DNA of 27,476 nucleotides, taken from a virus. Lineage: Duplodnaviria > Heunggongvirae > Uroviricota > Caudoviricetes. The position numbers and the translations under genes were made by a program. The DNA lies in IMG/VR virus record IMGVR_UViG_3300028962_000002. One strand, given 5' to 3'. The notes beneath the pieces are model-generated. The model was not told the origin of the DNA and did no database searches. It worked only from the letters and a program-made list of their open reading frames with translations. This document shows, in pieces, positions 12,785 to 27,209 of this stretch (position 1 is its first letter; every line of letters begins with the position of its first letter).

Positions 12785-13094
12785 TTTTATTCCTACGGGT
12801 CTTATTCTGACAATATATCCTGTGTTCCAGACTGCCACATCACCACATCCTGTGCCATTATCTGACTCACATTACATACATCGCATCGGGATACAGTAGT
12901 AGCACTTTCTGTAATACAGCTTCCTGTTTCTTCCACCATCGCACCGGGATAAACCCGCGAATCATTAACGCGGTAAAAACCCGGTGTGCATCGTTTTTAA
13001 TTATCCCCGCACACTCGCGCAGAGGAGTCTCCCTGTCGGGCTGCGGTCTCTGTTAATGAGGGAATATAGCGACGATACGGCGCATCAACAAAAC

Positions 13095-13568
13095 TTATTT
13101 CAGGCACTGAGTGCGGATATAGTCCTGTGCCCCTTCCAGTTGCTTGTGCATCGTCATCAGCCGCTCTCTGAGGGTGAAATAATCCCGTGTAACGGTGTCT
13201 GCCAGTTGGGGGCCGGTTGCATTATCCACGCCGGAGGTGGTGGGGGCTTCACGCACGGAGCCTGGACAGGTGGCGTTGATCCGCAGGCGCTTACGACCAG
13301 CGGCAACGTCAGCGCGAAGAGTTTCATTTTCAGCTCTCGCATCGGCTAATTCCCTCGAGTATTTTGCATCGAGCGCAGCAACATCGCGCTGGCGCACCTG
13401 CATATCAGTAATGGTTGCGTTCGCCAGCTTCAGTTCACTGGCTTTGTTATCGCGCTGCGCTTTGTAGGTAATCGCGTTATCACGGTAATGGTCTGTTGCC
13501 ATCCACAGCGCACCACAGGCCACCAGCAGAATAACGATAAACGCGGAAAGCATTCGGTTTATGTTCAC
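13095..13568 (-). CDS. Rz: Spanin inner-membrane subunit Rz
   Basis: [52 protein letters not shown]...[19 protein letters not shown] is near-identical to lambda Rz. Confidence 0.93.
13157..13342 (-). CDS. Rz1: Spanin outer-membrane lipoprotein Rz1, embedded in Rz in the +1 frame
   Basis: ...[47 protein letters not shown] matches lambda Rz1, including the proline-rich core and lipobox. Confidence 0.88.
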
Positions 13569-13696
13569 CCCAGCAACCCCGACGAAGACAACATCATCCA
13601 GGCCATGGAAAGAAAAAGAGCAACCAGCATTAGTGAAAATGAAATGCCGACAATTACACAGAGGATCTTCGCCAGCGTTATGAGTTTGTCTGACAT
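13565..13696 (-). CDS. Hypothetical 43-aa single-pass membrane protein, translationally coupled to Rz
   Basis: ATG at 13694-13696 with a GGGAGGA RBS; [35 protein letters not shown] has one hydrophobic helix; its stop overlaps the Rz start. Confidence 0.5.
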
Positions 13697-13710
13697 GCTT
13701 AATCCTCCCT

Positions 13711-13857
13711 TCACGATTTCAACGCAATGACCAGTTTTGCCAGCCCATACAGCATCGGGGACACAGCAACACCGACCGCCACCCACTTAATGGCAAAAGC
13801 CAGTGCTCTGCTGATGTCATCAGTTACAGGCGCTTTCAGTTCAAGGCCATTTTTCAT
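13711..13857 (-). CDS. Hypothetical 48-aa protein with C-terminal hydrophobic segment
   Basis: Start [11 protein letters not shown]... chosen for its GAGG RBS; lies between endolysin and Rz; the longer upstream in-frame start (13926) lacks a clear RBS. Confidence 0.35.
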
Positions 13858-14049
13858 AGTCAACCTCAACAGAATTCGTTTACACTTCGCCATGTTCTCC
13901 CTTGCCTTACTCAAGGTCAGAAACACAAAACCTCGCTTGGTGCCAACAAACGGGGTTTTTACTTTTATTCACTTACGTTTCGCCAGTTCGCAGGATTTCG
14001 TGTTATCCGCCCGCGTGGCCATTCCTCATTTTTCAGCAAAATATTCTGC

Positions 14050-14583
14050 TTATCTGTCGATACCCCAGCACGCCAGCGCGCTCTCCTGGTCACGACGGGA
14101 TACCTGACCGTAACAGTTGTTTGAACGAATACGGCAGTCTCTGCCACCGTCCTTAATCCACCAGCGAATCGCTTCGCAGGCACCTTTTCGATCACCAGCA
14201 TTAATTCGTCTGTAAAACGTCGACGGGAAACACTTACCGGGACCAATGTTGTACGGACAGAATGACGCGATCCCCGCTTTCTGGGGTTCGGTCAGCGGCA
14301 CTCTGATGTTTTTCTCCACCCACGCCAGCGCTTTATCACGCTCAATGGCGTTAACCTGGTCGCATTTTTCCTTCGACAACTTCATGCCCGGAACGACAGG
14401 TTTGCCATCCACCATGATGGCACCACGGCAGATGGTCCAGATACCTGCACCATCACGGTATGCCGTGGTGTGGTTGCCTTCCTTTTCATCCAGAAACTGG
14501 TCGAGAATGTCAGGCGCAGGCGCACCAGCGGCAATCAGCGCCAGAACGGCAGCCGACAGGCCGTATTTGATTTTGGTGTTCAT
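14050..14583 (-). CDS. R: SAR endolysin (T4-lysozyme-like, GH24) with N-terminal signal-arrest-release segment
   Basis: N-terminal Gly/Ala-rich weakly hydrophobic segment YGLSAAVLALIAAGAPAP; catalytic region DEKEGNHTTAYRDGAGIWTICRG (Glu, then Asp, then Thr); P21 R-like architecture directly after the pinholin. Confidence 0.88.
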   Translation of the reverse strand: MNTKIKYGLSAAVLALIAAGAPAPDILDQFLDEKEGNHTTAYRDGAGIWTICRGAIMVDGKPVVPGMKLSKEKCDQVNAIERDKALAWVEKNIRVPLTEPQKAGIASFCPYNIGPGKCFPSTFYRRINAGDRKGACEAIRWWIKDGGRDCRIRSNNCYGQVSRRDQESALACWGIDR

Positions 14584-14619
14584 GGATATATTAAATATTC
14601 AGCCGCTGTCCCTGGCCCA

Positions 14620-15513
14620 CTAAATACGCACTTTAAGATAAGTCAGCCCCGGATGAAGCCAGTAAGCCGGCCCTTTTTTAAAGGGTGGAGTATTAAAATC
14701 ACGAAGAAGAGCCTCCCGCACAATTGCATCCTTATCAGCACCACTGGCCAGCGCTTCAATCTCAGCGGCTACCTGAAGATATCCCATGCAACGGCCAACG
14801 CGCTTCATCAGCCCCTGCTTTTTATTGTTCTTCAGGTAATCAATGGCAAATTCAATGAGCTCCTCACTGTGCTGGTGCGATGGAGGTGTTACTTTCCCAT
14901 TTTCTGAGATGGTTATTTTCCCAGCATCACCGGATACAACAAAGGATGGCCGGTTACACTCCCATTCCGGGTCACTGAAATTATCATTATGAATACTGAA
15001 ACACTCTGCGAGATTTCTGCTCATCACTTTCCGACAATAATCGTCAAACGCAGCAAACTGCTTTTCATCGCCAGAAGGCACCAATATCGACCATTTCTTA
15101 TTCAGCTCAACGACGTAGCTCTCCAGTTTTTCAATACGTGATTCAACATCATCTTTTTCTGACCGCAGTGTTGACGGCGGCATCTTCAGAGAACAAGTAA
15201 TTCTTCCCGGTAGCTTTCCTTTGTAGGTTATCAACACATCCTGCGCCTCTAAAATTACGGGGCGCTTTTCCGGCAACGGTTCGTTCCATTCACATAACCC
15301 GGCAGCAACATCCATGAAAAACTGCTTCGCCTGCTTTTTCGCCTCAGCTTCGTAAAACTCCAGCGTGGCACCTTCAGTACGGTCAAGACTAATCGCCACA
15401 TCTGGCAACAACAGCGACGCTTGCCCGTCACCTTCCGACTTCACAGTAACAGTAACCTTATCCCCGTAATTATTTATCCCCTTAACAACCAGTTCATATT
15501 TTTTATTCATCAC
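14620..15513 (-). CDS. Hypothetical 297-aa soluble protein inserted between holin and endolysin
   Basis: ATG overlaps the holin stop (coupled); long uninterrupted frame; no transmembrane segment; no motif recognised by eye. Confidence 0.7.
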   Translation of the reverse strand: MMNKKYELVVKGINNYGDKVTVTVKSEGDGQASLLLPDVAISLDRTEGATLEFYEAEAKKQAKQFFMDVAAGLCEWNEPLPEKRPVILEAQDVLITYKGKLPGRITCSLKMPPSTLRSEKDDVESRIEKLESYVVELNKKWSILVPSGDEKQFAAFDDYCRKVMSRNLAECFSIHNDNFSDPEWECNRPSFVVSGDAGKITISENGKVTPPSHQHSEELIEFAIDYLKNNKKQGLMKRVGRCMGYLQVAAEIEALASGADKDAIVREALLRDFNTPPFKKGPAYWLHPGLTYLKVRI

Positions 15514-15514
15514 T

Positions 15515-15730
15515 TTACTCTCCCCGCGCCGCCTTACGCCGGTCCTCTTTGATTTTGAAATACAGGTTAGTCAGATATGTCAGCAGCCCAAACAGCAGAC
15601 TCCCCAGCACGCCTATTGCCGCCCACTGAGACGGGGAAACCCTGTCCAGCAACTGCAGGAACCAGTAGCCCGTTCCCACCGCTGACGTGGTGTATGACAC
15701 ACCTGTTGTGATTTTTTCCATCTGGTACAT
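15515..15730 (-). CDS. S: Pinholin (phage 21 S-like class II holin), dual-start motif MYQM
   Basis: [71 protein letters not shown], 71 aa, colinear with phage 21 S71 and with the same C-terminal tail; a second Met at codon 4 corresponds to the S68 start. Confidence 0.9.
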
Positions 15731-16037
15731 ACCCCGTCTCCCGTTATCCGGAAGCTGACAACAATAAAAAAGCCACCAGTTAAGTACTGATGGCTCTGAT
15801 AACTCATGCAGGCGTCTCAGACGACCCACTGACACTACCGGTGAGTTTAACGATACCTTCCATTTGACTGGCTCACTTTTTATGATGATGCCGGTGCATT
15901 TATCTCCAGCACCAGACTTTCTATCTCAACGCCATACGTTGCATTTTTGGTAATATCCGTCAGCGTCAGTGCATTTAGTCCCACTGCCAGACCGTCTTTT
16001 ATGGCCTGGAATGCCGGGCCAGTACGATGACGTAGTA

Positions 16038-16241
16038 TCACTCCGGCTCAGTTGCACCACTGACCACCACATCACCTTCTGCTGCAATCGCCTGCATCAG
16101 GGTATAAGGGGTTATGGCCACCGGACTACCAAACGGCTGCCAGCCCTCTTTCAGTTTATGTGTCAGCTTTTCCGCAAGATCTGACGGCGACGCCGCCCTG
16201 ACAACATCATAGTGTTTAAATGCCATGGTTCTTTCCACCAT
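16038..16241 (-). CDS. Small hypothetical protein (DUF1737-like), late operon
   Basis: 67-aa ORF ...MAFKHYDVVRAASPSDLAEKLTHKLKEGWQPFGSPVAI...; the family name is from memory; true start may be the internal MAFKHYD. Confidence 0.55.
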   Translation of the reverse strand: MVERTMAFKHYDVVRAASPSDLAEKLTHKLKEGWQPFGSPVAITPYTLMQAIAAEGDVVVSGATEPE

Positions 16242-16486
16242 CTGAAAAATGATTCTTTAAAATACCTGACATGTAATACAGAAAAAACACAAAACCATAC
16301 CTTAAATAAAAACCTCATCATCAAGCAGATATGCATGGATAAACTACAAGACGAGATATAAACCACCCTGCATTTAAATAAACAATAAACAACATCAGAA
16401 AAATAATTCTGCTCTATGGTTTACAATCAAAAATATCATTTATACTTTTCAGAACATCACCAGCAAGGCATAAACAAGGAAACTAA

Positions 16487-16822
16487 ATGAAGTGGATTGT
16501 GATTGATACAGTTATCCAGCCATCATGCGGAATATCTTTTTCAGTCATATGGAGTAAAATAAAATTAATAATCTGGTATCAATCGGATGCTTTCTTACCT
16601 CCTGAAAGTATATTTACACTGACTCACACAGGTATCATGCTCAATAACAAAGTGCTACCTGTAACCATTTACAACGTAGTACCATTCAATAAAACATTCT
16701 GGAATTTAATCAAAAACAGCCAGGAATGCCCTACAAATACAGATAACGTATTGAATGAATGCTTTAATAACCGTTGCACTCTGCAAATATGTCCTTATGG
16801 GCTAAAACAACAAAGTCCATAA
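16487..16822 (+). CDS. Hypothetical protein in an AT-rich moron island, opposite strand to the late genes
   Basis: AAGGAAA RBS before the ATG; region 16250-16850 is strongly AT-rich compared with the flanking phage DNA; 111 aa, Cys-containing. Not recognised. Confidence 0.5.
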
Positions 16823-16857
16823 GGAGTTTACTCACATCTGACAAAATCAATATAAAC

Positions 16858-16879
16858 AGCCCCTCCGGAGAGGGGCTGG
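16858..16879. terminator. Perfect 9-bp GC-rich hairpin (cagcccctc-cgga-gaggggctg), candidate terminator
   Basis: Stem-loop read directly; on the minus strand it is followed by a T-rich but interrupted tract (TTTATATTGATTTTG). Confidence 0.35.
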
Positions 16880-17178
16880 AGAGTGGCGCTATGTGCCATT
16901 GCATGGTGCCGGGTGCCTCCCGGTGAATTCAGTACCAGCACCTGAATCCGCGATTATCCCATATACCTACTCGCTGATTGCCCCTCCGCACAGGGGGATT
17001 CACCATGCCAGTTTCTTTTAACAAACTCCCCGCAAACCAGACAACAGTCAACCGCCTGAATTGTGAAGTATTTAAAAATTTCTCCCGCTAACTGATACCC
17101 GGCTAACAGTCTGGCGTTTTCTTTTTCAGCAACGGGAAAGCAACAACCACCACACCCACCAGCCGCCCATTTACCACA

Positions 17179-17206
17179 AATAAAAAAGCCTTCAGGACTG
17201 AAGGTG
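17179..17206 (-). terminator. Intrinsic terminator (minus strand) at the end of ORF 17192-17512
   Basis: Hairpin ccttcag-ga-ctgaagg followed on the minus strand by TTTTTTATTT; the ORF stop codon lies inside the stem. Confidence 0.55.
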
Positions 17207-17512
17207 TCTGTAACAACCAAACTGATAGTCTGCCAGACCCGCCATAACAAGCTGGGTCAGTATTAACTGGCAGCGTTCGCGTGAAAGGTAAGTATTCTGT
17301 GCAATCTCCCTGACTGTCGCCGGGTCGGTAACGCTTAATTCATTAAACACCACTCTGGCGGCTTCTGTCATATCCTGCTGTTTTAGCATGTCTTTTTCCC
17401 TTTTCCGGTTAACGTGACATACCAATAACTCTTGTCGAAAAAGCCGGCAAGCTGAAAGACCCGTATTCGCAACCACCAGCGCGTTTACTGTACTGACGCG
17501 ATTTTCGGACAT
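17192..17512 (-). CDS. Hypothetical 106-aa protein, first ORF downstream of the candidate late promoter
   Basis: ATG at 17510-17512 (MSENRVSTVNALVVANTGLS...); no clear RBS, the start abuts the U-tract of the upstream terminator. Not recognised. Confidence 0.45.
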   Translation of the reverse strand: MSENRVSTVNALVVANTGLSACRLFRQELLVCHVNRKREKDMLKQQDMTEAARVVFNELSVTDPATVREIAQNTYLSRERCQLILTQLVMAGLADYQFGCYRHLQS

Positions 17513-17540
17513 AAAAAAAACCACCTGGCGGTGGTTTTTT
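17513..17540. terminator. tR'-like intrinsic terminator just downstream of the Q-like gene (bidirectional A8-hairpin-T6)
   Basis: aaaaaaaaccacctggcggtggtttttt: 7-bp stem aaccacc/ggtggtt, loop tggc, flanked by A8 and T6. Confidence 0.6.
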
Positions 17541-17580
17541 CTTACTTTGCCATCACGTACAAAATCGGCAAAATATCAGA

Positions 17581-17618
17581 TTTATACGAAACATACGCGA
17601 TTTAATTGACTTTTGCAA
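17581..17618 (-). promoter_or_regulatory. Candidate late promoter (pR'-like): -35 TTGCAA, 17-bp spacer, -10 TATGTT, then -10-like TATAAA in the initial transcribed region
   Basis: Minus-strand -35 at 17613-17618 (inside the 3' end of the Q-like gene), -10 at 17590-17595, downstream TATAAA at 17581-17586; about 70 nt before the terminator. Assignment is by analogy with lambda pR'/tR'. Confidence 0.35.
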
Positions 17619-18297
17619 TATCTCGTCGTGAAAAGGTCGCTTTTTGTTGCGCTCTTATTTTCACGGAGCAAATCAAGGATTCTCTATCGAGGCGCTTAAA
17701 AATATCGCACATCTCACGCCAGTAGTTCGCATAATTATGGCTCCAGTTATCAGGCTTAACTCCACACAGTCTGGCAAGCTCCTGTCTCTGGTAGACCTCA
17801 CACCCGGTAACCCATCCTCTGACATCCTGTGCCGCCAGCCAGATCAACTTCTTCACACGCTCCAGCGTTTTCACTGCAATTTTTCTGGAGCCGGACTGAG
17901 TTTTAAATTCACTCCACCCCCACTGCGTTATCGCGATCTGATGCTCCCAGCAAATGTTTCCGCCATAACACCACAACAACCACGCCTTCTGATGTTCTTC
18001 CAGTTCCAGAACAGCACGCCGCCACGATGATGTTGCAAACTCAACAGGACTGACCAGCGCAATTGATGAGCCTTTCGCCAGTGATTGTTTACCCTGGATC
18101 GGGGGATTATCCCGCGTGATCATTTTTCCGGTTACCTCATCGCGGTAACGAATTTTTTTGCGTCTGTAACGCCCTGTATCGAACAGGGCATTTTCCTGCC
18201 AGGCTTCCAGCTGGCATTTTGTCGACCCACTGAGATCTGCAGTGGCAATCATGAGTTGCTCACGAACAAACTGTAAATACTGGTTATTCATGCACAC
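17602..18297 (-). CDS. Putative late-gene antiterminator (Q-like), assigned by position
   Basis: 231-aa ORF directly downstream of rusA and directly upstream of the candidate late promoter, terminator and lysis genes; no sequence family recognised with certainty. Confidence 0.5.
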   Translation of the reverse strand: MCMNNQYLQFVREQLMIATADLSGSTKCQLEAWQENALFDTGRYRRKKIRYRDEVTGKMITRDNPPIQGKQSLAKGSSIALVSPVEFATSSWRRAVLELEEHQKAWLLWCYGGNICWEHQIAITQWGWSEFKTQSGSRKIAVKTLERVKKLIWLAAQDVRGWVTGCEVYQRQELARLCGVKPDNWSHNYANYWREMCDIFKRLDRESLICSVKIRAQQKATFSRRDIAKVN

Positions 18298-18652
18298 CCA
18301 CCTCTGTAATTCTTATCTCCAGCCGTCCACCAGATACTGGCTGGCCACGTACAATATTGATTTCATCAAACTGCTCATCGTCCATTAACAACCCCGCGTG
18401 CGTCAGCGCATCCAGTGGTGCTTTCAGAATATTGTCCAGGTCACGACGACGCTTATCCGGTGGCTCTGCAATAATTTTTATTGCCAGCCGTCCGGACAGG
18501 CTTAATTTCAGTCGCTGCTGGCGAACAATAAGCGCCACTGCCCGGCGATAACGCTCCCCGGCTTTTGATACAAAATATGTGCTGCCACGGCGTCGCCAGT
18601 AAGTGTTCACCGTCGGCGAGTAAGGCAAAACAAATTCTATGCGTTCGGTCAT
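18284..18652 (-). CDS. rusA: Holliday junction resolvase RusA
   Basis: 122 aa; ...PDKRRRDLDNILKAPLDALTHAGLLMDDEQ...GGRLEIRITEVG matches RusA including the DRRRRDLDN catalytic region. Confidence 0.92.
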   Translation of the reverse strand: MTERIEFVLPYSPTVNTYWRRRGSTYFVSKAGERYRRAVALIVRQQRLKLSLSGRLAIKIIAEPPDKRRRDLDNILKAPLDALTHAGLLMDDEQFDEINIVRGQPVSGGRLEIRITEVGVHE

Positions 18653-19711
18653 TTATGCTTTCCACTTCAGAACACCCGAATTTCTCGCGTGCATTAAAAA
18701 ACGAATCAGCAACAACAACTGACTACCGTGTTTTTCTTCAAAATCTTTTACCCCGGCGTGTAGTTCGTTATGGCATTTACGACACAGCGGAATAACAAAC
18801 AAATCGTCAGCCTTTGTTCCCATCCCTCCCAGTCCATGACCAATGATGTGATGCGGATCATCTGCCTGATTGCCACACGTCATGCATTTCTGCGTTTTTA
18901 CCCAGCGCGTGTATACAGGCATCTCTTCCCGTTGTGGTTTCTGGCGCTGGAGATACTGAGCCGGAGATTCCGGATCAACGGCAATGCTGACCACCGTCTT
19001 TTCCTGTGGTGGGTTCTGTTGCTGGTGGGCGTGAGGCAGCGGCGCAAGATTTTTTGTGCGCTGTTTCAGTATGCTGGTGGCGGTCTGCTCTCCCGGTACG
19101 ATGTCGCTTTCACGGTACATTGAGCGGATTTTTTCCGCACGCAACCCCAGCGAACGACGTAATACCGCTTCCGGTAGCGCGTCCGCCACCTGATTGCGGA
19201 CCGCCCACCAGGATAATTCAGCCAGCGATAATTCCCGTTCCTGCGAGCCATTCATTGCATGGCGTATGACGTCAATCATCCATGCAGACAGGTTTTGGTG
19301 AGCAAGTTGCCCGAGTGATTCGGAGGTCTGGTCGCGCAGCTGGTTGTCGCAGTGCCAGCACAACACCATTGCGCCGGTACCATAACGGTGAATGACGGTT
19401 TCACTGTGGTGATAATCGCCGTGTGGCCACTGGCAGGATTTAACATGGCGCAGTAACCAGTCAGACAATGCGCCAGCGCCACCAGCAGCACGAATCACTC
19501 GTTCGTCGCTGAAAAATGGCAGTAATGATTTATCCTCCGCCAGCGGCTGGCGAACGGCAGGAACGACCCCGGACGACAGATTACGCATGCTTTTCGGTTC
19601 CGGCTCCACCAGTACCCGGGTATTGTGGAATACCGGCATGGATTCACGGCCCGGTTTTAGCACCACCAGCCCAAGTTCCGGTACCAGAACAGGTCGAAGT
19701 AATACCCGCAC
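18653..19711 (-). CDS. DUF968-like protein (YdfU-like) with C-terminal HNH-like Cys/His motif
   Basis: 352 aa; C-terminal CMTCGNQADDPHHIIGHGLGGMGTKADDLFVIPLCRKCHNELH is a Cys/His metal-binding pattern; position next to rusA/Q as in Qin; family name from memory; start codon uncertain. Confidence 0.7.
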   Translation of the reverse strand: MRVLLRPVLVPELGLVVLKPGRESMPVFHNTRVLVEPEPKSMRNLSSGVVPAVRQPLAEDKSLLPFFSDERVIRAAGGAGALSDWLLRHVKSCQWPHGDYHHSETVIHRYGTGAMVLCWHCDNQLRDQTSESLGQLAHQNLSAWMIDVIRHAMNGSQERELSLAELSWWAVRNQVADALPEAVLRRSLGLRAEKIRSMYRESDIVPGEQTATSILKQRTKNLAPLPHAHQQQNPPQEKTVVSIAVDPESPAQYLQRQKPQREEMPVYTRWVKTQKCMTCGNQADDPHHIIGHGLGGMGTKADDLFVIPLCRKCHNELHAGVKDFEEKHGSQLLLLIRFLMHARNSGVLKWKA

Positions 19712-20525: not shown

Positions 20526-20681
20526 TTACTCCTCAGGTTCGTAAGCTGTGAAGACAGCGACCTCCGTCTGGCCGGTTCGGATTCGTACCTCGCAGAGGTC
20601 TTTCCTCGTTACCAGTGCCGTCACTATGACGGTTAAACAGATGACGATCAGGGCGATTAACATCGCCTTTTGCTGCTTCAT
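20526..20681 (-). CDS. hokD: Hok-family membrane toxin (type I toxin-antitoxin), HokD-like
   Basis: MKQQKAMLIALIVICLTVIVTALVTRKDLCEVRIRTGQTEVAVFTAYEPEE, 51 aa, canonical Hok sequence. Confidence 0.92.
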   Translation of the reverse strand: MKQQKAMLIALIVICLTVIVTALVTRKDLCEVRIRTGQTEVAVFTAYEPEE

Positions 20682-20738
20682 AGCCTGCTTCTCCTTGCCT
20701 TTCGGCTCGTAAGAGGCTAACCTACATGTGTCTAGCAT
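20526..20738 (-). CDS. Mok-like leader reading frame: in-frame N-terminal extension of hok (70 codons)
   Basis: MLDTCRLASYEPKGKEKQA followed by the Hok sequence, resembling the chromosomal Mok leader pattern (M-L-N-T-C-R...KEKRA-MKQ). Confidence 0.6.
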   Translation of the reverse strand: MLDTCRLASYEPKGKEKQAMKQQKAMLIALIVICLTVIVTALVTRKDLCEVRIRTGQTEVAVFTAYEPEE

Positions 20739-21355
20739 GAAATTGGCCTCAGATTAATGTTAAGCGTCTTGCAGGACGCGTAATGTTAACTGGGGCTTTT
20801 CTCTATCTGCCTTTGGTGTTCATGCCCGAGGCAGATAGCCTCAAGCACCCGCAGCCATTCTACTTAACTACCGTTACCTCGCCAATATGAAATCAGTCAG
20901 AAAGGCGATCCATAAGAACAATAGCAAGACAATAAATCGCCATTACAGCCGTAATAGCCAGCGCACATTTGAGAACCAGCACCACAACCTCCTGTATTGG
21001 ACGTAGACCAGTCCTGATGAATATGAGGCTGTCTCGTCAGTGATTCAATACAACTATTGGGTATAGTTTCTCTGATTTTTTCTGTGGAAATGGGGCACAA
21101 CCACTAGTCACCACCAGCACTTCTTTTAATACGCAAAGTCCGACACAAGCTAACCTTCTAGTCCGCTTTGAGCGAAAAACAGCCATAATTTAGTGCCACG
21201 TATATAATGATAGAGCTATTCAAGCTAGCAATTCACATGTAAAAATTCAGAGGGTAGAAGCACATAGTTATAAATGTTGGCTCCATCGACAAATTGCGGT
21301 CTCAAGTACATTTATTAATGTTGCCCCCGCATTAACAAATCATCAAGGTGACGAC

Positions 21356-27151: not shown

Positions 27152-27209
27152 TTTCTGGTGACGTTTGGCGGTATCAGTTTTACTCCGTGACTGCTCTGCC
27201 GCCGTTTTT
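27152..27209 (+). ncRNA. dicF: DicF small RNA (53-nt core plus U-tail)
   Basis: tttctggtgacgtttggcggtatcagttttactccgtgactgctctgccgcc followed by gttttt, matching the E. coli DicF sequence as recalled; ends in a hairpin plus U-run. Confidence 0.88.

What the first reader, a model, noticed from the sequence alone, without database searches (positions are those of the whole stretch)
16250..16879. AT-rich moron between late promoter and lysis genes, in the slot where Stx phages carry stx
Region 16250-16850 is strongly AT-rich relative to its flanks and carries a plus-strand ORF (16487-16822) with a good RBS, antisense to the late operon, followed by a perfect GC hairpin. The Q-to-S interval is a classical cargo insertion site (stx and tRNA genes in Stx phages). 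The protein is unrecognised.
Basis: partly seen in the sequence, partly recalled or inferred. Interest (0 to 1): 0.5.

Follow-up and report, generated by a model that had tools for sequence, protein, structure and literature searches.

The report
Prophage copy of known iraL gene
The AT-rich insert is real, but its gene is iraL, a characterised E. coli gene whose small protein protects the stress sigma factor RpoS from degradation, so the finding is ordinary and already explained.

Summary
Segment 16228-16856 has 32.4% G+C, the lowest of any 629-nt stretch in a 50.4% G+C window. It carries the plus-strand ORF 16487-16822, antisense to a lambdoid late operon (Q, DUF1737, holin, lysozyme, Rz, all on the minus strand). 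A perfect 9-bp hairpin lies at 16857-16878.

The protein is not unrecognised. It is 111/111 identical to IraL of uropathogenic E. coli CFT073 (c1429, WP_000871291.1). [quoted passage not shown] The published 5'-RACE transcript start maps to window 16454. The promoter region occurs in 1438 of 5426 complete E. coli genomes.

Two details need correcting:
- The hairpin is the Rho-independent terminator of a convergent minus-strand sRNA of the STnc100 family (16848-17037, Rfam 132 bits). It has no T-run on the iraL strand.
- The module is not in the stx position. It lies one slot downstream, between the STnc100 terminator and the start codon of the nanS-p/DUF1737 gene. In phage 933W that slot holds the anti-sRNA AsxR, in the same antisense orientation. 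A 76%-identical IraL variant sits beside stx2 in some draft genomes.

Verdict: a genuine moron, but an already known gene. Low interest.

The parts
16228..16856 (.). AT-rich iraL module (moron): promoter region, iraL and a short 3' tail.
   Evidence: G+C is 0.324, the global minimum of the window. Homology to Stx phages VT1-Sakai and 933W stops at the CAT/ATG of the DUF1737 gene (16225-16227) on one side and at the base of the hairpin (about 16858-16860) on the other.
16420..16446 (+). Likely sigma-70 promoter of iraL: -35-like TTTACA (16420-16425) and -10 TATACT (16441-16446).
   Evidence: The hexamers were read from the sequence relative to the published TSS. PMC4045071 reports sigma-70-like -10/-35 elements upstream of the RACE start but the figure is not held, so the hexamer assignment is mine. 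The window differs from CFT073 at 16426 (A for T), 16453 (A for G) and 16484 (T for C).
16454..16486 (+). iraL 5' UTR, starting at the transcription start mapped by 5' RACE in CFT073.
   Evidence: The published 5' end is ACATCACCAGCAAGGCATAAACAAGGAAACCA (PMC4045071). It matches window 16454-16485 at 31 of 32 positions.
16487..16822 (+). iraL coding sequence (111 aa): RssB anti-adaptor of the IraM/IraL/RssC family.
   Evidence: 111/111 identical to CFT073 IraL, which has the same protein accession WP_000871291.1. NCBIfam NF007393 scores 162 bits. 62% identical to K-12 IraM. Residues 1-78 align without gaps to the IraM chain of PDB 8TWD, E = 9e-32.
16848..17037 (-). STnc100-family prophage sRNA gene, on the late strand and convergent with iraL.
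   Evidence: Rfam RF02076 scores 132.4 bits (gathering 47) over the full model 1-206. The same family lies next to iraL in CFT073, L007, L013 and L014, and downstream of stxB in 933W, VT1-Sakai and a Stx2a phage.
16857..16878 (-).
   Evidence: It is terminator-like on the minus strand only: 9 pairs, 7 G-C, tail TTTATATTGA. It aligns to the terminal stem of the STnc100 model. It is conserved in 43 phage records that lack iraL.
16041..16226 (-). Truncated DUF1737 gene, a remnant of the N-terminus of a nanS-p-type esterase gene. It is the first late gene after the module.
   Evidence: PF08410 E = 4e-17. RefSeq annotates it as incomplete, missing the C-terminus. Its 5' end is 85-91% identical to the 5' end of the esterase gene of Stx phages.
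17602..18297 (-). Late antiterminator Q.
   Evidence: PF06323 E = 2e-82. Annotated as antitermination protein Q.
17511..17597 (-). Candidate late-promoter leader with terminator (pR'/tR' equivalent), directly downstream of Q.
   Evidence: Hairpin plus T-run at 17515-17540, on both strands. Only sub-threshold resemblance to isrK and Phe_leader. An isrK match above threshold occupies the same position after Q in E. albertii L010. This part is inferred, not shown.
15515..15730 (-). Class II holin, the start of the lysis cassette.
   Evidence: PF04971 E = 2e-32. Annotated coordinates.

Best explanation
The segment is a prophage moron carrying iraL.

Mechanism shown for the identical protein in CFT073 and S. 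sonnei:
- iraL is transcribed in the lysogen from its own sigma-70-type promoter, starting at window 16454.
- The 111-aa IraL protein binds the N-terminal receiver domain of the adaptor RssB.
- RssB then cannot deliver sigma-S (RpoS) to the ClpXP protease, so sigma-S is stabilised during exponential growth.

Architecture shown here:
- The module lies between the terminator of the late-strand sRNA STnc100 and the start codon of the nanS-p/DUF1737 gene.
- It is antisense to the late operon.
- This is the position and orientation that the anti-sRNA AsxR has in phage 933W.

Inferred only:
- The STnc100 terminator shields iraL from antisense read-through in the lysogen.
- After induction, Q-modified polymerase reads through that terminator and transcribes iraL antisense, which would shut iraL down.
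For: - Identity: 111/111 aa to CFT073 IraL, c1429, WP_000871291.1 (locus tag from PMC12890032).
- Family: NCBIfam IraM model at 162 bits against a cut-off of 121. 62% identity to K-12 IraM. Gap-free match to the crystallised IraM core 8TWD. Pro66, an RssB contact in IraM (PMC10844676), is invariant in the family.
- Function (PMC4045071): deleting iraL lowers log-phase sigma-S in CFT073 and S. sonnei. The sigma-S half-life falls from about 5 to about 2.5 min. iraL with its native promoter (-100 to +33) complements the deletion, and on a plasmid with the native promoter it raises sigma-S in K-12. IraL co-purifies with RssB and contacts only its N-terminal domain.
- Transcript: the RACE 5' end matches window 16454-16485 at 31/32 positions. 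RNA-seq detects c1429 in CFT073.
- Conservation: the 701-nt region is at least 80% covered in 1427 of 5426 complete E. coli genomes. The 94-nt promoter stretch is in 1438 genomes, and 792 of them have a best match of at least 99% to this window's allele. The two coding differences from CFT073 are both synonymous.
- Moron anatomy: the G+C minimum coincides with the homology breakpoints.
- Slot mapping.
Against: - No expression or binding data exist for this exact locus.
- The promoter/5' UTR differs from CFT073 at three positions (16426 next to the -35-like hexamer, 16453 at -1, 16484 near the start codon). PMC4045071 notes that a -35 variant of unknown activity exists in JJ1886. I could not check whether it is this allele.
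- There is no canonical plus-strand terminator after iraL, so the 3' end of the mRNA is unknown.
- AT-rich foreign DNA is often silenced by H-NS (general knowledge, not tested here).
- The effect of late transcription on iraL is inference only.
Confidence: 0.9

Rival explanations
1. The gene is intact, but this copy is silent cargo of a decaying prophage. Either the promoter variant is inactive or the AT-rich DNA is repressed, so the locus has no effect on RpoS in this host.
For: Three substitutions in the promoter/5' UTR relative to CFT073. The IraL paper leaves open whether a -35 variant allele is expressed. The neighbouring late genes are damaged: DUF1737/nanS-p is truncated, and the YdfR-family gene is annotated as incomplete.
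Against: This promoter allele is the commonest among carriers, being the best match in 792 of 1438 genomes. The -10 hexamer, the TTTACA hexamer and the start nucleotide of the mapped transcript are unchanged. The protein is 100% conserved, with only synonymous changes.
Confidence: 0.1
2. The protein acts mainly on a response regulator other than RssB. Its fold is that of PmrD, which binds phospho-PmrA, so the RpoS effect would be secondary.
For: The IraM core has a PmrD-like fold with r.m.s.d. about 1 A (PMC10844676). Homologues carry a precomputed PF11183 (PmrD) assignment.
Against: IraL co-purifies with RssB and gives two-hybrid signals with it. Its deletion halves the sigma-S half-life. Nothing here points to another partner.
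Confidence: 0.03
3. The functional element of the AT-rich segment is a non-coding RNA (an anti-sRNA like AsxR/AgvB, which occupy this slot in EHEC prophages), and the ORF is incidental.
For: The slot and orientation are those of AsxR in 933W. Tree et al. describe convergent sRNA pairs at this position (PMC4104026).
Against: No AsxR or AgvB match in 15800-17700 even at E <= 1. The ORF is conserved as a protein across variants of 60-89% identity, with 39 invariant columns. Protein-level function has been shown (PMC4045071).
Confidence: 0.02

Closest known systems
IraL of uropathogenic E. coli CFT073 (c1429; Hryckowian et al. 2014, PMC4045071)
   Same: Identical protein (111/111). The flanking DNA is 94% identical across window 15175-17163. 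It has the same convergent STnc100 and the same DUF1737 neighbour, and the same mapped 5' UTR apart from one base.
   Different: The prophage backbone differs. CFT073 has another Q type, an IS200 and the ileZ-argN-argO tRNA genes upstream. This window has no tRNA genes. There are three promoter/UTR substitutions.
IraM of E. coli K-12 (b1160), the PhoP-induced anti-adaptor
   Same: Same family: 62% identity and the same length class. It has the same PmrD-like core by sequence match to 8TWD, and the Pro66 contact and four C-terminal cysteines are conserved.
   Different: Only the coding region is alignable. The upstream and downstream DNA are unrelated. IraM contacts both RssB domains, whereas IraL contacts only the N-terminal one. 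IraM sits beside the e14 remnant, not in an intact Q-holin interval.
AsxR/AgvB anti-sRNAs of EHEC lambdoid prophages (Tree et al. 2014, PMC4104026)
   Same: Same slot and orientation: between the STnc100 terminator and the nanS-p start, antisense to the late operon and convergent with the late-strand sRNA.
   Different: These are RNAs of 51-60 nt that sponge host sRNAs. This locus has a protein gene and no sequence similarity to them.
stx operons of Stx-converting phages (the classical late-region moron)
   Same: Cargo in the Q-holin interval of lambdoid phages, with its own promoter and a composition below that of the backbone.
   Different: stx lies on the late strand and upstream of STnc100. 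iraL lies on the opposite strand and downstream of it. The two can coexist.
PmrD (PhoP-induced connector protein protecting phospho-PmrA)
   Same: Same small beta-barrel fold as the IraM core. Both bind a response-regulator receiver domain (PMC10844676).
   Different: Different target (PmrA, not RssB). There was no detectable Pfam match with the copy used here.

Membership tests
IraM/IraL/RssC anti-adaptor family | Sequence passes the curated family model. | tested here: met
   NCBIfam NF007393 (anti-adapter protein IraM): 162 bits against a cut-off of 121, covering residues 1-110.
IraL (as distinct from IraM) | At least 95% identity to CFT073 iraL over the whole coding region. This is the criterion of PMC4045071, which also gives about 59% aa identity to K-12 IraM. 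| tested here: met
   111/111 aa identical, with 2 synonymous nucleotide differences. BLASTP gives 62% identity to K-12 IraM.
IraL | Own sigma-70-type promoter with the mapped transcription start. | tested here: met
   31/32 match to the RACE-derived 5' end. The -10 TATACT and the TTTACA hexamer are unchanged. Activity of this allele was not tested.
IraM/IraL/RssC anti-adaptor family | PmrD-like beta-barrel core (residues 1-78). | tested here: met
   Gap-free alignment of residues 1-78 to the crystallised IraM chain 8TWD_A, E = 9e-32. This is by sequence only; no model was built.
IraM/IraL/RssC anti-adaptor family | Binds RssB and stabilises sigma-S against ClpXP. | not testable with these tools
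   Shown for the identical protein in CFT073 and S. sonnei (PMC4045071).
Phage moron (Juhala et al. 2000 sense) | Extra DNA between sequences that are adjacent or much closer together in related phages. | tested here: met
   631 nt here, against 206 nt in 933W and 233 nt in VT1-Sakai, between the STnc100 terminator and the esterase start codon. The flanks are homologous and the interior is unrelated.
Phage moron (Juhala et al. 2000 sense) | Base composition distinct from the backbone. | tested here: met
   G+C 0.324 against 0.504, the global minimum of the window.
Phage moron (Juhala et al. 2000 sense) | Own promoter and own terminator, giving expression from the repressed prophage. | tested here: inconclusive
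   Promoter: yes, from the literature TSS. Terminator: none with a T-run on the plus strand. The only hairpin is the minus-strand terminator of STnc100.
STnc100 sRNA (RF02076), for the hairpin-bearing segment 16848-17037 | Covariance-model score above Rfam's gathering threshold over the full model. | tested here: met
   132.4 bits against a gathering score of 47, model positions 1-206. Expression was not tested.
stx-slot cargo | Located between the pR'/tRNA region and the STnc100 sRNA, on the late strand. | tested here: not met
   iraL is downstream of STnc100 and on the opposite strand. stx2 and an IraL variant sit side by side in L007-L009.

The most novel reading that the evidence does not exclude
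The interval between the STnc100 terminator and nanS-p may be a dedicated 'lysogen-expressed, antisense' cargo slot of lambdoid phages. It can hold either an anti-sRNA (AsxR/AgvB) or an IraL-type anti-adaptor. Convergent transcription with STnc100 and with the Q-antiterminated late transcript would then couple IraL output, and hence host RpoS level, to the prophage's lysogenic or lytic state. Because a 76%-identical IraL variant travels back-to-back with a divergent stx2 in some draft genomes, some Stx phages could raise RpoS in their lysogens. The slot equivalence and the stx2 adjacency are shown here. The regulatory coupling and any phenotype are untested.
Probability: 0.2. Interest if true: 0.4.

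Novelty: already known. Interest (0 to 1): 0.12.

Why it matters
The gene itself matters, because IraL sets log-phase RpoS levels in many pathogenic E. coli and Shigella. That was established in 2014, however, and RefSeq already annotates this ORF as an anti-adapter protein.

This check adds three small things:
- A precise map. iraL is a prophage late-region moron in the AsxR position, convergent with STnc100, not in the stx position.
- Frequency figures: about 26% of complete E. coli genomes carry it, and this promoter allele is the commonest.
- An IraL variant lies next to stx2 in a few draft genomes.

These are context notes, not a new system.

Tried and rejected
- Pfam scans of the ORF and of K-12 IraM found nothing, even at E <= 10. 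Homologues nevertheless carry a precomputed PF11183 (PmrD) label. I relied on NCBIfam and PDB instead.
- PhoP-box search for IraM-like regulation found one 1-mismatch site at 16375-16391 on the minus strand. It reads as a 7-nt tandem TGTTTAT repeat. It appeared in 4% of shuffles of the AT-rich upstream region, and the pattern is not enriched in the window. I treat it as a weak lead only.
- No AsxR or AgvB anti-sRNA was found in the window.
- No tRNA genes are present in the window, so the Stx-phage tRNA cluster is absent here.
- Rfam did not find AsxR/AgvB in the equivalent interval of VT1-Sakai or of a Stx2a Oslovirus phage. It did find AsxR in 933W, so the slot equivalence rests on 933W plus Tree et al.
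- The simple promoter scan did not pick up the iraL promoter. The TTTACA-TATACT spacer is 15 nt, outside the scan's 16-18 range. My hexamer assignment is therefore tentative.
- I searched for stx-iraL adjacency in complete E. coli genomes and in deposited phage genomes. No record covered both, so the adjacency is seen only in draft assemblies.
- I did not build a structure model, because the 8TWD match made it unnecessary.
- I could not determine whether this allele is the JJ1886 'iraL2' -35 variant, because the relevant figure is not held.

Full report
**What is in the sequence**

The window is part of a lambdoid prophage of E. coli with its late operon on the minus strand.

Reading in the late direction, the genes are:
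- Q antiterminator, 17602-18297 (PF06323, E = 2e-82)
- a short hypothetical ORF, 17192-17389
- a truncated DUF1737 gene, 16041-16226
- class II holin, 15515-15730
- a DUF1327/YdfR-family ORF
- lysozyme, 14050-14583
- Rz

The window is essentially identical to E. coli strain 7/2 (NZ_CP023820.1); the region 13000-19000 is 99.98% identical.

- The AT-rich stretch is real. G+C is 0.32-0.35 for 300-nt windows between 16150 and 16750, against 0.46-0.51 in the flanks.
- The plus-strand ORF 16487-16822 encodes 111 aa, with AAGGA upstream of the ATG.
- A perfect 9-bp hairpin lies at 16857-16878.

The AT-richness is not marginal. Segment 16228-16856 has G+C 0.324. Of all 629-nt windows in the sequence, the lowest starts exactly at 16228. 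No window that avoids the segment falls below 0.412.

**What the ORF is**

A megablast of 16200-16900 against 5426 complete E. coli genomes hit 2221 of them, and 1427 covered at least 80% of the query. The ORF is annotated there as 'anti-adapter protein IraM'.

- The NCBIfam IraM model NF007393 scores 162 bits against a cut-off of 121.
- K-12 IraM is only 62% identical.
- That matches the description of IraL, the IraM homologue of uropathogenic strain CFT073, reported as 58.9% identical to IraM (PMC4045071).
- The CFT073 locus tag is c1429 (PMC12890032).
- I fetched that region of NC_004431.1. The gene there encodes WP_000871291.1, the same accession as in strain 7/2. A direct comparison gives 111/111 identities.
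- The two nucleotide differences inside the coding region are both synonymous.

So the protein is not unrecognised. It is IraL.

**How it works (from the literature, for the identical protein)**

Hryckowian et al. 2014 (PMC4045071) reported the following:
- Deleting iraL lowers log-phase sigma-S in CFT073 and in Shigella sonnei.
- The sigma-S half-life drops from about 5 to about 2.5 min.
- A single copy of iraL with its native promoter (-100 to +33) restores stability, and plasmid-borne iraL with the native promoter raises sigma-S in K-12.
- IraL co-purifies with RssB.
- In two-hybrid assays IraL contacts only the N-terminal receiver domain of RssB. IraM contacts both domains.

The crystal structure of IraM(1-78) bound to RssB shows a PmrD-like beta-barrel. 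It occludes the 4-5-5 face of the receiver domain, where sigma-S binds (PMC10844676).

Residues 1-78 of the window protein align to that chain (8TWD_A) without gaps, E = 9e-32. Pro66, a named contact, is invariant across ten family members of 60-100% identity. So are four cysteines in the C-terminal tail.

Their 5'-RACE transcript start gives the sequence ACATCACCAGCAAGGCATAAACAAGGAAACCA. It maps to window 16454-16485 with one mismatch. A -10 hexamer TATACT (16441-16446) and a TTTACA hexamer (16420-16425) lie upstream. The hexamer assignment is mine, because the paper's figure is not held.

CFT073 RNA-seq detects c1429 and shows induction on a shift to 37 deg C. IraL levels also rise in a fur mutant (PMC7157518).

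Both fail.

**Allele check**

Relative to CFT073, the window has three substitutions in the promoter/5' UTR:
- 16426, A for T, next to the TTTACA hexamer
- 16453, A for G, at position -1
- 16484, T for C

The IraL paper mentions a -35 variant of unknown activity in JJ1886. I could not tell whether this is that allele.

A 94-nt query across the promoter found it in 1438 of 5426 genomes. In 792 of these the best match is at least 99% identical, which at this query length means an exact match. This is therefore the commonest allele.

**Where exactly the module sits**

BLAST against Stx phages shows homology on both sides of the module but not inside it:
- Window 16858-17075 matches the segment just downstream of stxB, at 74-76% identity.
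- Window 16171-16227 matches the 5' end of the nanS-p-type esterase gene, at 91% (85% over a longer match, 16119-16227, in the Stx2a phage L005).

Reading the sequences shows the breakpoints:
- On the left, identity stops at the start codon of the esterase/DUF1737 gene ('...gtgtttaaatgccatg' is common to all).
- On the right, it stops at the base of the hairpin.

The interval between those two points is 631 nt here, 233 nt in VT1-Sakai and 206 nt in 933W.

**The hairpin belongs to a convergent sRNA**

An Rfam scan changed the reading of the hairpin. Window 16848-17037 on the minus strand is a full-length match to the prophage sRNA family STnc100 (RF02076, 132.4 bits, gathering score 47). The hairpin is that model's terminal stem, followed by UUUAUA.

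The simple terminator scan agrees. The site qualifies only on the minus strand.

The same family lies in several other places:
- immediately downstream of stxB in 933W (207.7 bits), VT1-Sakai and a Stx2a phage
- convergent with iraL in CFT073
- convergent with three IraL-variant loci

Others have noted STnc100 downstream of stx2 (PMC12370729). A 2026 preprint links it to PasD and to esterase genes (10.64898/2026.05.13.724894). Its main text does not mention iraL or iraM.

**The slot is that of AsxR, not stx**

In 933W the order on the late strand is stx2B, then STnc100 (L015 2278-2483), then the anti-sRNA AsxR on the opposite strand (2485-2537, RF02703, 88 bits), then the esterase start at 2690.

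[quoted passage not shown] 2014. They place AsxR 282 bp 3' of and antisense to stx2AB (PMC4104026).

iraL therefore occupies the position and orientation of AsxR, one slot downstream of stx.

Direct support comes from related loci:
- A 76%-identical IraL variant (P0005) lies between a divergent stx2 (319-aa A subunit, 87-aa B subunit) and the esterase gene, in draft genomes GCA_039832115.1 and GCA_039832205.1.
- In marmot strain STEC299, the same variant type follows the three tRNA genes without stx.
- In CFT073, iraL follows IS200, the ileZ-argN-argO tRNA genes, a DUF3927 gene and STnc100.
- An E. albertii IraM-like gene (66% identical) sits in yet another late-region position. It lies between an ORF6N gene and DUF3927/STnc100, again antisense to the late operon.

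The family is thus late-region prophage cargo in general.

**Inference beyond the data**

- In the lysogen, the STnc100 terminator would stop any late-strand read-through before it runs antisense into iraL.
- After induction, Q-modified polymerase should ignore that terminator and transcribe across iraL antisense.
- iraL has no plus-strand T-run terminator, so its mRNA may extend into STnc100 antisense.

None of this was testable here.

**Verdict**

The gene is already known and characterised, and RefSeq already names it. The hairpin and the 'stx slot' were misassigned. The added value is a precise map and some frequency figures. Interest is low.

Noticed in passing
window 16848-17037 (-): Full-length STnc100-family prophage sRNA gene (Rfam 132 bits), convergent with iraL. 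Its terminator is the hairpin in the finding. The same iraL-STnc100 convergent pairing recurs in CFT073, L007, L013 and L014.
   Followed up: yes
L007 3206-5105, L008, L009 (draft genomes GCA_039832115.1 and GCA_039832205.1): A 76%-identical IraL variant lies back-to-back with a divergent stx2 operon. Its nucleotide identity is about 89% to stx2a/2c, and its best B-subunit match is Stx2h at 93%. Neither the 50,697 phage records nor the 5426 complete E. coli genomes contain a record covering both genes.
   Followed up: partly
window 16727-16807 (IraL residues 81-107): Four cysteines (C81, C92, C97, C102) and the ICPYG motif in the C-terminal tail are invariant across family members of 60-100% identity. 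That tail was removed for crystallography and described as less conserved and flexible. This may be a metal-binding or disulfide motif.
   Followed up: no
window 16375-16391 (-): PhoP-box-like TGTTTATTGTTTATTTA (1 mismatch), 63-79 nt upstream of the iraL transcription start. It occurred in 4% of shuffles of the upstream region and may simply be a 7-nt tandem repeat. K-12 iraM is PhoP-induced.
   Followed up: partly
window 15880-16226 (-): The nanS-p-type esterase gene is reduced to a DUF1737 stub (16041-16226) plus a 53-aa ORF (15880-16041). Related prophages have a 616-668-aa DUF1737-SASA esterase at this position.
   Followed up: partly
window 17511-17597 (-) and 17471-17546 (+): A hairpin flanked by A and T runs lies directly downstream of Q. 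It has sub-threshold resemblance to isrK and STnc370. It is probably the pR' leader and tR' terminator for this Q type. isrK occupies the equivalent place after Q in E. albertii L010.
   Followed up: no
window 20526-20850 (-): A hokD toxin gene with its sok antisense RNA (Rfam 116 bits), in the nin-like region upstream of Q.
   Followed up: no
window 27153-27204 (+): DicF sRNA (Rfam 72.5 bits) near the end of the window, in the early region of the prophage.
   Followed up: no
window 14620-15513 (-): A 297-aa ORF whose first 100 residues or so are DUF1327/YdfR. RefSeq annotates only a partial YdfR-family pseudogene here, and CFT073 has a 114-aa YdfR gene. This may be a fusion or a rearranged gene between the holin and the lysozyme.
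   Followed up: no
IraL/IraM proteins: The Pfam copy used by the scan tool gives no hit for IraL or K-12 IraM, even at E <= 10. The precomputed table lists PF11183 (PmrD) for nearly all homologues. The two Pfam resources disagree.
   Followed up: partly
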